Assembly (NCBI GenBank): GCA_918797485.1
Contig: CAKKNE010000003.1
Coordinates: 1,488,001 to 1,552,000, forward strand
DNA: 64,000 nucleotides
Direction of reading: 5' to 3'
From: Pelagomonas calceolata
Lineage: Eukaryota
How positions within the stretch are numbered: the stretch's first letter is position 1; each line of letters opens with the position of its first letter. Positions 16,673 to 19,324 of this stretch are shown here, piece by piece. Under the pieces are notes generated by a model. It ran no database searches and was not told the origin of the DNA. It saw nothing but the letters and a program-made list of their open reading frames with translations. Position numbers and translations under genes: made by a program.

Positions 16673-16703
<31 letters not shown>

Positions 16704-19324
16704 GACGGCGGCGGCGGCGTCGTCATTGCCCTTGTTTTCGTCGTGCTGGCCCTTGCTGGCGTCGCTGCGTACCTATACTGGAAGAAGAAGAAAAGGGGTA
16801 CGGGAGGCACGAAGGTCGCGCCCGCAACGAAGCCATCGTCGTCCACGAAGGCCGCGGTGGCCGTCGGCGCCGCGGCCGGCGCCGGAGGAGCCGCGCTCAC
16901 GGCGTCGCAGACCGACGTCCTCGGACCGCTCTCTGGAATTCTATCGGCGCTTCCCGCGGCTGCGCCGCCGCCGCTCAACATGTGTCTGATGCCGTTGACG
17001 CACGCCTTAGCCGAACTGGGCCTCGCGGTGCGCCAGGTGCGCTTCAACAAGGAGGCCGCGGAGCTGCTGCAGCGGCGCGGAACGGAGATCGCCCAGAAGC
17101 TCCAGGACGTCGTCAAAGCGACGCAGGGCCTGCCGACGGGACAGGTCGAGGCCGTCGCTCGGACGGTGACGGCCATCGGCCAGGCGCTCGACGAGGCGGC
17201 GAAGTTTCTCCAGCAGTTCTCGAAGAAGGGCGCGTTCTCGAAGCTCTGCTCCGGCACGCTCGACGCGCGGCGCTTCGGTCTCCTCGACAAGCGGCTCTGC
17301 GAGCTCAGCACGGAGCTCGGCTCGGCGTTGGACCTCCAGCAGCTCGCGCTGCAGGCGCAGCGATTCGAGAAGATCGAAGGCTTGATCCAACTCCTCGGCC
17401 AGCAGACGGTCAATGCGAACAATCAGGCGGCGGCCCAGCGGGCGGCGATCCTGTGCGGCATCCCGAAGGGCAGCGCCGTCGAGCACGAGGAGCTCTCGGC
17501 GCTCGGCCTGAAGCTGGACCGGATCGCCGAGGACGTGAGCACGGTCATGGACCAGAACACGAAGCAGCAGGAGTCGCTCGACGAGATCAAGGAATTGGTG
17601 GCGACGAAGAACTCGAAGCTGCGAGGCCGCGCGCTGGCGCGCCAGGATAAAGATAGGGCGCTCGAGGAGCTGGAGATCGAGTTGGACTCGGTCGAAGAGA
17701 AGCCCATCGCGAAGGGCTCGCAGGGCGCCGTTCACAAGGCTTCGTACCAAGGCGACGTGGTCGCGCTGAAGAAGATGAGTCTCGTCCTGTGTGGAAATCA
17801 ACCAGTGTGTCGGGTGCACCCGACAATTCTTCACTAAGTCATTTCTCGGCGATGACGCGGCCGTCCTGGCTCGGTCGAGCGGTGAGGAACCGGCATCGCC
17901 ACGCCATCGAGCAGACATCGCGTCGATGGCGTGGAGGACGACGCGATGGTTCAGCACGAACGCGCCGTAAAATTTTGATTTCCATCGGCGCCTGCAGGTC
18001 TCGTCGGCATCACGGCGACGAAGCGGAACAAGATGATGAAGGACTTTGCGACGGAGCTGGCCATCATGGTCAAGCTTCGGAGCCCGCGCATTGTTTCCGT
18101 GTATGGGGTGGTGACCTGTGTGGAAATCAACCAGTGTGTCGGGTGCACCGATAATTCTTCACTAAGTCATTTCTCAGTCATGACGCGGCCGTGCTGGCCC
18201 CGTCGAGCGATGAGGAACCGGCATCGCCACGCCATCGAGCAGGCGGCGCGCGATGGCGTGGAGGACGACGCGAAGATTCAGCACGAACGTGCCGTAAAAT
18301 TTTGATTTCCACACAGGTGGTGACGACGGACTCGAGTTGGCTGGGCTTGGTCGTCGAGTACTGCGGCGGCGGTGACCTGCGCGAGGCGCTCGACGCCGAC
18401 GACGCGGCAAGTATTGACGAAGCGCAGCGGAGGCGCTGGCTATCGGACATCTCGCTGGGCATGGCATACCTCTACTCCAAGGGCGTGGAGCATCGCGACC
18501 TCAAGACGTTAAACATCCTCCTCGACGGCGACCGGCGCTGCAAGGTAACGGACTTCGGTTTGAGCAAGTCCGAGTCGCTGGCCACGGCGGCGACGCAGGC
18601 GACGGCCGGGGGCGACGCCAAGGGCACGCCTGCGTACATGGCGCCCGAGCTCCTCCAGCACAACATCTTCACAGAAAAGGGCGACGTGTACGCCTACGGC
18701 ATGATCGTCTTCGAGGTACTGACCGGAGATATGCCATGGCGCGGCCTCAATCAGATGCAAATCATGATGCAGGTGTGCATTCAGAAGGACCGCCCGAAGA
18801 TTGATGGCGATGCGCCCGCGGACCTGGTAGCGCTCATGGAACGCTGCTGGGCGCCCGAGCCCGACGCTCGACCCTGCTTCGCCGACATCAAGGCCGCGCT
18901 GCGGGGCGGCCCCGATACTCCTGCGCGACGACGGCCGGTCGAGGAACAGCCCGCGGCGGCGGCCGTGGACGAGGAGACGCGGCAATTGCAAGAAGCTATG
19001 GCGCTCTCCGAGCAGTCTCTCGAGCAGGAGCGGCGTCGCGCGCAAGAGCAGCAGGAGCAGGAGCGGCGTCGCGCGCAAGAGCAGCAGGAGCAGGAGCGGC
19101 GTCGCGCGCAAGAGCAGCAGGCGTCGCAGGCGGCGGCGGCAGCACCCCAACAGCCACAAACCCAGCCGGCGGAGACGCAACCGCAGCGGACGGTGATGAT
19201 CCAGGTTCCGCCCGGCTGCGGCCCGGGCATGCCACTGCAAATCAGAACGCCGACCGGCCAGATCGTACAGATCGTCGTCCCCGCCGGGGCAGGACCTGGG
19301 AGCCAGTTCCAGGTCGGCTACTGA
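12804..19324 (+). CDS. Single-pass receptor-like kinase, ~1918 aa: signal peptide, unknown N-domain, JmjC/cupin-4, Cys-rich and PT regions, TM, MLKL-like helical bundle, TKL kinase, UIM-like helix. Exons 12804-13550, 13762-13923, 14049-17778, 17998-18107, 18317-19324
   Basis: Removing four introner introns gives 5757 nt in one frame. JmjC-type NHTDTTDVLVLQLSGAKEW...LEPGDALFLPRGVVHGA; TM VVIALVFVVLALAGVAAYLYW followed by KKKKR; kinase AKGSQGAVH, VALKK, HRDLKTLN, DFG, GTPAYMAPE. Confidence 0.85.
12852..12977 (+). repeat. 63-bp in-frame tandem duplication (DRPAALRRATGIDATE[G/A]IWGA x2)
   Basis: Copies start at 12852 and 12915; the paralog at ~130-180 has a single copy (ATGIDPAAPVWGAPFRE). Confidence 0.9.
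13559..13761. mobile_element. Introner element copy 1 (203 bp); TSD GTGGCCGC; intron 13551-13761 (GT-AG)
   Basis: TIRs CTGTGTGGAAATCAA / TTGATTTCCACACAG; identical 8-mers at 13551-13558 and 13762-13769; spliced EDVAATGFF matches paralog YDVAATGFF. Confidence 0.95.
13932..14048. mobile_element. Introner element copy 2, internally deleted (117 bp); TSD GCCGCCGC; intron 13924-14048 (GC-AG)
   Basis: Both TIRs present, orientation opposite to copy 1; spliced RWAAASASVGHALSNVQVD aligns with paralog RWVRDSADIGHSITNVEVG. Confidence 0.9.
16644..16719 (+). repeat. GGC/GGT trinucleotide run encoding a poly-Gly juxtamembrane linker
   Basis: Run of about 20 Gly codons, one Asp, then more Gly, directly before the TM. 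Confidence 0.9.
17787..17997. mobile_element. Introner element copy 3; TSD GTCTCGTC; intron 17779-17997; 3' TIR remodelled
   Basis: 5' TIR intact; 3' end reads TTGATTTCCATCGGCGCCTGCAG; spliced KKMSLVGITATKRNKMMKDF. Confidence 0.9.
18116..18316. mobile_element. Introner element copy 4 (201 bp); TSD GTGGTGAC; intron 18108-18316
   Basis: Intact TIRs and TSD; spliced VSVYGVVTTDSSWLGLVVEY (kinase subdomains IV-V). Confidence 0.95.
19022..19120 (+). repeat. 33-bp tandem repeat x3 (EQERRRAQEQQ)
   Basis: gagcaggagcggcgtcgcgcgcaagagcagcag occurs three times. Confidence 0.9.

What the first reader, a model, noticed from the sequence alone, without database searches (positions are those of the whole stretch)
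16700..19324. Membrane receptor with an MLKL-like four-helix bundle fused to an intact TKL kinase
Seen: after the TM comes a helical segment (LAELGLAVRQVRFNKEAAELLQRRGTEIAQKLQ...AIGQALDEAAKFLQQFSKKGAFSKLCSGTLDARRFGLLDKRLCEL), then a coiled-coil brace, a kinase with all catalytic motifs (VALKK, HRDLK, DFG, APE) and a UIM-like helix. The pattern resembles the MLKL N-terminal/RPW8-like/HeLo bundle (V..NK....L..R; L..A..F...FS....F.K). Established: MLKL is a soluble 4HB + pseudokinase necroptosis executor. Inference: a receptor-coupled cell-death or immune module in a picoalga, possibly antiviral. The gene only becomes visible after removing four introners.
Basis: partly seen in the sequence, partly recalled or inferred. 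Interest (0 to 1): 0.8.

Follow-up and report, generated by a model that had tools for sequence, protein, structure and literature searches.

The report
Membrane receptor kinase carrying MLKL-like bundle
A gene of a tiny marine alga encodes a membrane-spanning kinase whose inner part carries a helical domain related to the animal cell-death protein MLKL, and because relatives swap the outer sensing part while keeping that domain, it is likely an immune-type receptor with its effector built in, though killing has not been tested.

Summary
Observation confirmed. Removing four introners, each with a perfect 8-bp target duplication, gives one 1,918-aa frame (12804-19324): large ectodomain, one TM helix, helical bundle, long brace and a kinase with intact motifs. 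The bundle is an MLKL_N homologue: Pfam E 9e-6, just under cut-off (12); a family profile ranks MLKL chains first in the PDB (E 2e-5); the model (pLDDT 87) overlays human MLKL at Z 11.0, 2.7 A over 120 residues (34, 52), though designed bundles tie. An intron-free relative has ectodomain, TM, bundle and kinase in one ORF (50, 67). Relatives keep the bundle (88-94% identical, dN/dS 0.18-0.24) but swap ectodomains (DUF285, Fea1, JmjC), replace the TM by a myristoylation-like WD40 head, or drop it. It is not an MLKL proper: the bundle is internal, behind an extra helix, and the kinase looks active. A blocked N-terminus stops MLKL killing (PMC9709077), so death is a hypothesis (about 0.45); 'antiviral' has only circumstantial support. 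My searches found no published TM-MLKL kinase. The scan earlier noted an MLKL-like domain in a ROCO protein of another protist.

The parts
12804..19324 (+). Five-exon gene, 1,918 aa: exons 12804-13550, 13762-13923, 14049-17778, 17998-18107, 18317-19324
   Evidence: no internal stop after splicing; GC3 mostly 0.7-0.98 along the CDS; splicing itself inferred, no RNA seen
12804..12851 (+). Start codon and short signal-peptide-like N-terminus
   Evidence: first Met of the frame; judged by eye, no predictor run
12942..14135 (+). Ectodomain module A (aa 47-332), shared with the neighbouring gene at about 24-6929; a lead towards an aromatic-prenyltransferase-like barrel
   Evidence: 51% identity to window 132-989; Atlas feature hits 0.90-0.93 to bacterial PTase_Orf2/DUF5838 clusters, with low recognition value, lead only (run on the paralogue)
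13551..13761 (+). Introner 1 (GT..AG, TSD GTGGCCGC)
13924..14048 (+). Introner 2 (GC..AG, TSD GCCGCCGC, internally shortened)
   Evidence: absent in P0149
14475..14756 (+). JmjC domain in the ectodomain, with H-x-D and distal His
   Evidence: Pfam JmjC_2 E 2.4e-18; motifs located
14790..16700 (+). Cys-rich segment, P/T-rich stalks, two unassigned modules, an SEA-like module (my label) and a poly-Gly spacer
   Evidence: sequence; no Pfam hit at E 0.05 for three sub-regions tested; SEA-like part 24-33% identical in 5 of 13 relatives
16719..16796 (+). Transmembrane helix and basic stop-transfer segment (type I topology inferred)
16848..16961 (+). G/A-rich linker and extra N-terminal helix (alpha0), uncharged and hydrophobic, followed by a Pro-Pro-Pro hinge
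   Evidence: model helix 10-20; mean hydrophobicity 0.63, net charge 0; a G/A tract by my regex in 17 of 30 rows
16977..17345 (+). MLKL_N-related four-helix bundle
17346..17687 (+). Extended brace region ending in a heptad-repeat helix (aa about 1458-1490)
   Evidence: heptad scan; low-confidence model of relative L001
17688..18907 (+). TKL-type Ser/Thr kinase with intact catalytic motifs, split by introners 3 and 4
   Evidence: Pfam PK_Tyr_Ser-Thr 147 bits against Pkinase 134 bits on the last exon
17779..17997 (+). Introner 3 (GT..AG, TSD GTCTCGTC, variant right end; holds an in-frame stop)
18108..18316 (+). Introner 4 (GT..AG, TSD GTGGTGAC)
18965..19321 (+). Tail: UIM-like helix (by eye), three Gln/Glu/Arg repeats and a small VPPG-type module that moves between positions in relatives

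Best explanation
This gene encodes a single-pass, receptor-like TKL kinase of a pelagophyte alga whose cytoplasmic part begins with an MLKL-related four-helix bundle and brace, and it likely works as an all-in-one immune-type receptor in which the bundle is the membrane-acting effector. Shown: the gene structure, the TM, homology of the bundle to MLKL_N, intact kinase motifs, purifying selection on bundle and brace, and exchange of N-terminal modules around a fixed bundle. Inferred: ligand binding to the swappable ectodomain clusters the receptor; the brace coiled coil oligomerises; the kinase autophosphorylates, doing the job that RIPK3 does for MLKL; the bundle, or its extra hydrophobic helix alpha0, then engages the inner leaflet and causes ion flux or cell death. 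The N-terminal tether would act as pre-localisation and possibly as a safety catch removed by cleavage in the disordered linker. Ligand and outcome are untested.
For: Homology: Pfam MLKL_N E 9.1e-6 and a hit at E up to 0.01 in 43 of 61 alignment members, far ahead of any other non-kinase family; 7 of the 8 best PDB sequence hits of the profile are MLKL, E 2e-5 to 3e-4; Foldseek rank 1 is the MLKL executioner domain 6zvo (TM 0.52/0.58); VIA-align Z 11.0 to 6ux8, 10.5 to AtMLKL3, 10.3 to mouse MLKL. The bundle is the conserved core: 88-94% identity against 66-78% for the kinase in the four closest full relatives; dN/dS 0.18-0.24 in three complete pairwise comparisons. Everything around it is swapped: ectodomains DUF285 (L001, L005, L006, P0006, P0009), DUF285+Fea1 (P0135), unassigned (P0011, P0122), JmjC (window); a myristoylation-like WD40 head without TM (P0003, the nearest bundle, 96%); TM-less forms with another kinase (P0010, P0018). 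Of 32 distant homologues 8 begin with a myristoylation-like motif and none has a kinase HRD motif, so membrane anchoring recurs. Known HeLo/MLKL domains act in cell death or immunity, also in 'all-in-one' receptors (PMC12881547, PMC9950082, passages), and Pm13 shows that MLKL_NTD plus an intact kinase confers resistance (PMC10951266, passages). DUF285 domains move between Aureococcus and its giant virus (10.1101/2024.10.30.620910, passages).
Against: MLKL residue 1 aligns to model residue 26, so the bundle has about 1,280 residues in front of it; an N-terminal EGFP fusion abolishes MLKL killing while keeping membrane recruitment (PMC9709077, passages). The Met at that position is not conserved (V, K or C in relatives), so an internal start is unlikely. 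N-terminally extended MLKL-like bundles are of open function (10.1101/2022.03.16.484565, passages). AtMLKL immunity can be separated from death (10.1101/681015, passages). The 4HB has net charge only +3. The structural scores alone are not decisive: Foldseek E 0.093, and three designed helical proteins score Z 11.0-12.6. The family is small in Aureococcus (7 named records that look like about 3 loci by shared ectodomains), unlike large immune expansions. This gene's own ectodomain (JmjC, enzyme-like module) is not a typical pattern-recognition domain and has no DUF285. No viral homologue was found (0 of 13 candidate stretches). No expression or functional data.
Confidence: 0.45

Rival explanations
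1. An ordinary signalling receptor kinase in which the MLKL-like bundle is a non-lytic scaffold: it binds lipid or partners and, with the brace, sets the oligomeric state and represses or positions the kinase; the output is phosphorylation, not membrane damage.
For: Blocked N-terminus and the EGFP-MLKL result (PMC9709077); extra N-terminal helix as in Goodbye-like bundles of unknown role (10.1101/2022.03.16.484565); death-independent AtMLKL immunity (10.1101/681015); intact kinase motifs in most relatives checked; low net charge. Non-lytic uses of related bundles in plant ARM/U-box proteins are recalled, not tested; the DUF7792 model hit 3 of 61 members.
Against: The bundle is better conserved than the kinase and survives kinase replacement or loss, which fits an effector better than a kinase regulator.
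Confidence: 0.35
2. A nutrient or surface sensor rather than an immune receptor: the ectodomains (Fe(II)/2-oxoglutarate JmjC here, iron-binding Fea1 in Aureococcus) report iron or a metabolite, and the bundle gives a sub-lethal Ca2+-type signal.
For: JmjC with its metal ligands here; Fea1 in P0135/P0008.
Against: Most known ectodomains are DUF285 repeats or unassigned, and WD40 or bare soluble forms exist; the JmjC cassette also sits in other stalked proteins with no kinase in the sequence recovered, so it may be a passenger.
Confidence: 0.15
3. The long frame is a chance or recent non-functional join of a secreted mucin-like gene and a soluble MLKL-like kinase gene.
For: No RNA was seen for this locus; soluble family members exist (L002, L007, L008, P0010); this ectodomain was not found on any other kinase-bearing member (no BLAST hit at E 1e-3).
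Against: No stop and no non-coding dip in exon 3; TM 32-122 residues before the bundle in 9 of 14 long homologues; intron-free L001 and P0008/P0135 join ectodomain, TM, bundle and kinase; linker 94% identical to L001.
Confidence: 0.05

Closest known systems
Animal MLKL (4HB + brace + pseudokinase)
   Same: Homologous four-helix bundle (profile E 2e-5; Z 11.0, 2.7 A over 120 residues), followed by a helical brace and a kinase fold in the same order
   Different: Here the bundle is internal, behind an ectodomain, a TM helix, a linker and an extra helix; the brace is longer (about 115-120 aa); the kinase keeps its catalytic motifs
Plant AtMLKL1-3 and wheat Pm13 (MLKL_NTD + kinase)
   Same: Z 10.5 to AtMLKL3; Pm13 likewise joins MLKL_NTD to a kinase with all key residues (PMC10951266, passages)
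   Different: Those have the bundle at the N-terminus with no ectodomain or TM described; AtMLKLs are pseudokinases
Fungal HeLo/HELL-kinases, Goodbye-like and basidiomycete MLKL-like domains; Glomeromycotina MLKL-Sel1 proteins
   Same: Same superfamily; N-terminally extended bundles and all-in-one sensor-effector fusions occur there (10.1101/2022.03.16.484565, PMC12881547, PMC8778642; passages)
   Different: Those are intracellular; Pfam HeLo did not hit this bundle at E up to 1
Protist and oomycete transmembrane TKL kinases
   Same: Single-pass receptor-like kinase built by recombining lineage-specific sensor domains with a kinase (PMC10463195, passages)
   Different: That survey has no mention of MLKL, HeLo or cell death in its main text; the juxtamembrane 4HB and brace are the added element

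Membership tests
MLKL (animal/plant) | Four-helix bundle homologous to MLKL_N | tested here: met
   Pfam E 9.1e-6 (25.7 bits, under the 27-bit cut-off; several distant homologues pass it), profile-to-PDB E 2e-5, structural match
MLKL (animal/plant) | Bundle at the free N-terminus of a soluble protein | tested here: not met
   About 1,280 residues and a TM helix precede it; the Met at MLKL position 1-2 is not conserved
MLKL (animal/plant) | Brace helices that drive oligomerisation | tested here: inconclusive
   Long helices with a heptad pattern are present, but the model of relative L001 has pTM 0.32 and no oligomer model could be obtained
MLKL (animal/plant) | Catalytically dead pseudokinase | tested here: not met
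   VALKK, HRDLKTLN, DFG and APE intact and in most relatives checked
MLKL (animal/plant) | Membrane permeabilisation or cell death on activation | not testable with these tools
   needs expression assays
Pm13-type MLKL_NTD-kinase fusion | MLKL_NTD joined to a kinase with intact motifs | tested here: met
   PMC10951266 passages
Pm13-type MLKL_NTD-kinase fusion | Two-domain protein with N-terminal bundle and no ectodomain | tested here: not met
   ectodomain and TM present; soluble relatives P0010, L008 come closer
RPW8/CC-R and HeLo domains | Match to RPW8 or HeLo profile or structure | tested here: inconclusive
   No Pfam hit at E up to 1 for the window bundle; weak RPW8 hit in 1 of 54 homologues (E 0.0095); NRG1 CC-R Z 8.0, Rx-CC Z 8.7
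Single-pass receptor-like TKL kinase | Ectodomain, one TM helix with basic residues after it, cytoplasmic kinase | tested here: met
   same layout in 9 of 14 long homologues and in L001
Single-pass receptor-like TKL kinase | Cleavable signal peptide and plasma-membrane location | not tested
   N-terminus judged by eye only
Single-pass receptor-like TKL kinase | Kinase belongs to the TKL group | tested here: inconclusive
   PK_Tyr_Ser-Thr outscores Pkinase and the motifs fit from recall; no kinase tree was built
Ubiquitin-interacting motif | Match to Pfam UIM | tested here: not met
   no hit at E 0.05 or E 1; pattern by eye only
Pelagophyte introners | Repeated introns with terminal inverted repeats and 8-bp target-site duplication | tested here: met
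   (copies 86-96% identical); 8-bp TSD in Aureococcus introners per 10.1101/2022.06.06.494994 (passages)

The most novel reading that the evidence does not exclude
Pelagophyte algae have folded the whole necroptosis chain (surface receptor, activating kinase, MLKL executioner) into one membrane protein with swappable sensors; sensing a giant virus or bacterium, for example through DUF285 decoy repeats shared with the virus, triggers self-killing that aborts infection, which would explain Aureococcus strains that lose cells on viral inoculation yet release no virus.
Probability: 0.2. Interest if true: 0.87.

Novelty: new variant of a known kind. Interest (0 to 1): 0.62.

Why it matters
MLKL/HeLo executioners are described from animals, plants and fungi as soluble proteins or NLR heads. 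A family in abundant marine picoalgae that wires the same bundle behind a transmembrane receptor and an intact kinase extends the superfamily to ochrophytes with a new topology, and offers a natural test of whether the bundle needs a free N-terminus. It also gives a concrete candidate for an open question: some Aureococcus strains lose cells after viral inoculation without producing virus, by an unknown mechanism (PMC10720644, passages).

Tried and rejected
No whole genome is held, so paralogues could not be counted genome-wide. No RNA reads were seen for this locus. Single-sequence search of the bundle against the PDB gave only designed helical proteins; the MLKL hit needed a profile. Foldseek against viral structures gave nothing at E 0.001, and a viral-contig scan found 0 relatives among 13 candidates (close relatives only). 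A search for long fused homologues with the profile returned only two already known members. The model of TM + bundle + brace + kinase of relative L001 was low-confidence (pLDDT 57, pTM 0.32), so domain packing is unresolved. The Atlas search of the unassigned ectodomain module at 15096-15779 did not complete. Rejected: plain coiled coil (the model is a 4HB plus one helix); internal start at Met 16980 (not conserved); RPW8 or HeLo as nearest family (MLKL_N fits better); pseudokinase. In the tree 5 of 46 rows were left out (4 shorter than 110 residues in the domain, 1 frameshifted). Architecture labels for fragments and for Aureococcus gene models are uncertain: P0011, P0015 and P0016 lack a TM probably through mis-prediction. 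Literature: searches (listings and abstract starts; passages where cited) showed no TM-anchored MLKL kinase and no MLKL report in pelagophytes; the library lacks most subscription papers, and supplements were not read, so domain tables there may list such proteins.
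Full report
The observation. The quoted TM, helical segment and kinase motifs are all at the stated place. Four introner-type insertions interrupt the gene: 13551-13761, 13924-14048, 17779-17997 and 18108-18316. Each begins with an 8-base stretch that is repeated right after the closing AG, starts with GT or GC, and belongs to one repeat family with copies elsewhere in the window at 86-96% identity. Removing them gives a 1,918-residue frame from 12804 to 19324. 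The junctions agree with relatives that lack the insertions: the neighbouring paralogue, P0149 and L001. The organism is a pelagophyte by inference: the named close relatives are all Aureococcus anophagefferens (7 of 14 long homologues, 54-67% identical), and unnamed relatives reach about 90%. No genome and no RNA were available.

One gene, not two. Exon 3 runs 3,730 bases from the ectodomain to the kinase N-lobe with no stop in frame (22 and 10 in the other forward frames) and no low-GC gap. A TM-like window lies 32-122 residues before the bundle in 9 of the 14 long homologues. L001 has DUF285 repeats, TM, bundle and kinase in one 1,086-residue intron-free ORF. P0017, which has TM, bundle and kinase start, carries the source label 'merc', which I recall as a transcript-derived catalogue; that is recall, not a test.

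The bundle. Pfam MLKL_N hits at E 9.1e-6, 25.7 bits against a cut-off of 27; RPW8 and HeLo do not appear at E up to 1. A search of 1.84 billion representatives gave 108 hits at E 0.001. In a 61-row alignment 43 rows hit MLKL_N at E 0.01, and some distant rows pass the cut-off. The alignment's profile returns MLKL for 7 of its 8 best PDB sequences (E 2e-5 to 3e-4; the other is a ribosomal protein matched outside the bundle). AlphaFold2 gives mean pLDDT 87 with helices 10-20, 25-45, 50-73, 79-104, 111-116 and 121-165. Foldseek ranks the human MLKL executioner domain first, but only at E 0.093. VIA-align gives Z 11.0 (2.7 A, 120 residues) to human MLKL, 10.5 to AtMLKL3 and 10.3 to mouse MLKL, with three designed helical proteins at Z 11.0-12.6 and GCP4 at 10.9. 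The structure alone would be only suggestive; with the sequence profile, homology is well supported. MLKL residue 1 falls on model residue 26, so this protein has one extra hydrophobic helix and a Pro hinge in front, as in fungal Goodbye-like and basidiomycete MLKL-like bundles (10.1101/2022.03.16.484565, passages).

The family. Kinase-fused members form one clade (15 of 41 rows, support 99/93) with short internal branches. Within it the front end varies: DUF285 repeats, DUF285 plus Fea1, unassigned Cys-rich modules, this gene's JmjC cassette, a myristoylation-like WD40 head with no TM (P0003, the nearest bundle at 96%), and TM-less forms, two of which have another kinase. Bundle and brace are under purifying selection (dN/dS 0.18-0.24 and 0.15-0.24 against L001-L003; kinase 0.35-0.41). 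Against L001, dS is 0.10 in the linker, 0.27 in the bundle and 0.72 in the kinase, which suggests mosaic exchange among paralogues (inference). This gene's first ectodomain module recurs in the neighbouring kinase-less membrane protein gene, and the JmjC cassette recurs in other stalked proteins. Distant homologues include a Mallomonas protein; 8 of 32 start with a myristoylation-like motif, none has a kinase HRD motif, and partners include WWE, SAM, UEV and helicase domains.

How it likely works. A conserved bundle surrounded by exchangeable sensors and even exchangeable kinases reads best as an effector module. I infer ligand-driven clustering, brace oligomerisation, autophosphorylation in place of RIPK3, and membrane engagement by the bundle or alpha0, giving ion flux or death (0.45). 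The main objection is topological: a large N-terminal fusion stops MLKL killing while leaving membrane recruitment (PMC9709077, passages), and the internal Met is not conserved. Killing would need cleavage in the disordered linker (pLDDT under 50) or a different insertion helix. A non-lytic scaffold role is nearly as likely (0.35); AtMLKL immunity can be separated from death (10.1101/681015, passages). An iron or metabolite sensor is possible (0.15). The antiviral idea rests on two indirect points: DUF285 domains move between Aureococcus and its virus (10.1101/2024.10.30.620910, passages; 38 viral DUF285 genes, PMC10720644, passages), and some strains lose cells without making virus (PMC10720644). 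Against it: no viral homologue of the bundle, a small family, and no DUF285 in this gene. PMC5917014 (passages) does not mention host kinases.

Comparison and novelty. It works like an MLKL-type protein but is not a member of MLKL proper: it fails the free-N-terminus and pseudokinase tests. MLKL_NTD plus an intact kinase is known (Pm13, PMC10951266, passages; fungal HELL-kinases, PMC12881547, passages; Glomeromycotina, PMC8778642, passages), and protist receptor kinases with shuffled sensors are known (PMC10463195, passages). The combination with a TM and ectodomain was not found in searches, within an open-licence library and without supplements. Verdict: real, a new variant of a known kind, interest 0.62; 0.87 if it proves to be a one-protein necroptosis-like antiviral receptor (probability about 0.2).

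Noticed in passing
window about 24-6929 (+): Neighbouring large type I membrane protein gene that shares ectodomain module A (51% identity) but has a GPS autoproteolysis motif (Pfam E 4.6e-10), P/T stalks, a TM and a short tail with no kinase; its frames are discontinuous, so it has introns or frameshifts.
   Followed up: partly
window 12942-14135 and 132-989: Secreted-type module resembling bacterial aromatic-prenyltransferase-like clusters by language-model features, placed before a JmjC domain; a possible bacterial enzyme cassette reused in ectodomains.
   Followed up: partly
P0003: Myristoylation-like N-terminus + near-identical WD40 repeats + MLKL-like bundle + kinase: an intracellular, NLR-like version of the same module.
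   Followed up: partly
P0010, P0018, L002:1768, L007, L008: TM-less family members; P0010 and P0018 have a different kinase, and Tudor-like modules sit before or after the cassette.
   Followed up: partly
P0087, P0103, P0106, P0091, P0116, P0111: Distant internal MLKL-like bundles fused to WWE, helicase/AAA or UEV domains, several with myristoylation-like N-termini; a wider unexplored protist set.
   Followed up: no
window 19701-19911, 34522-34600, 48168-48375, 63491-63686, 63928-64000: Further copies of the same introner family in other genes, in both orientations.
   Followed up: partly
window 21989-23527 (+), 9043-10077 (-), 36193-37890 (-), 26223-34172 (+), 48938-51388 (-), 52041-53786 (+): Other genes: three kinases (one with a Vta1-like hit), VPS13, Myb + BRCT, CDC20-type WD40; a light-harvesting-like protein at 20520-21260 (-) and a ClpS-like protein near 19497-20140 (-) by eye.
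   Followed up: no
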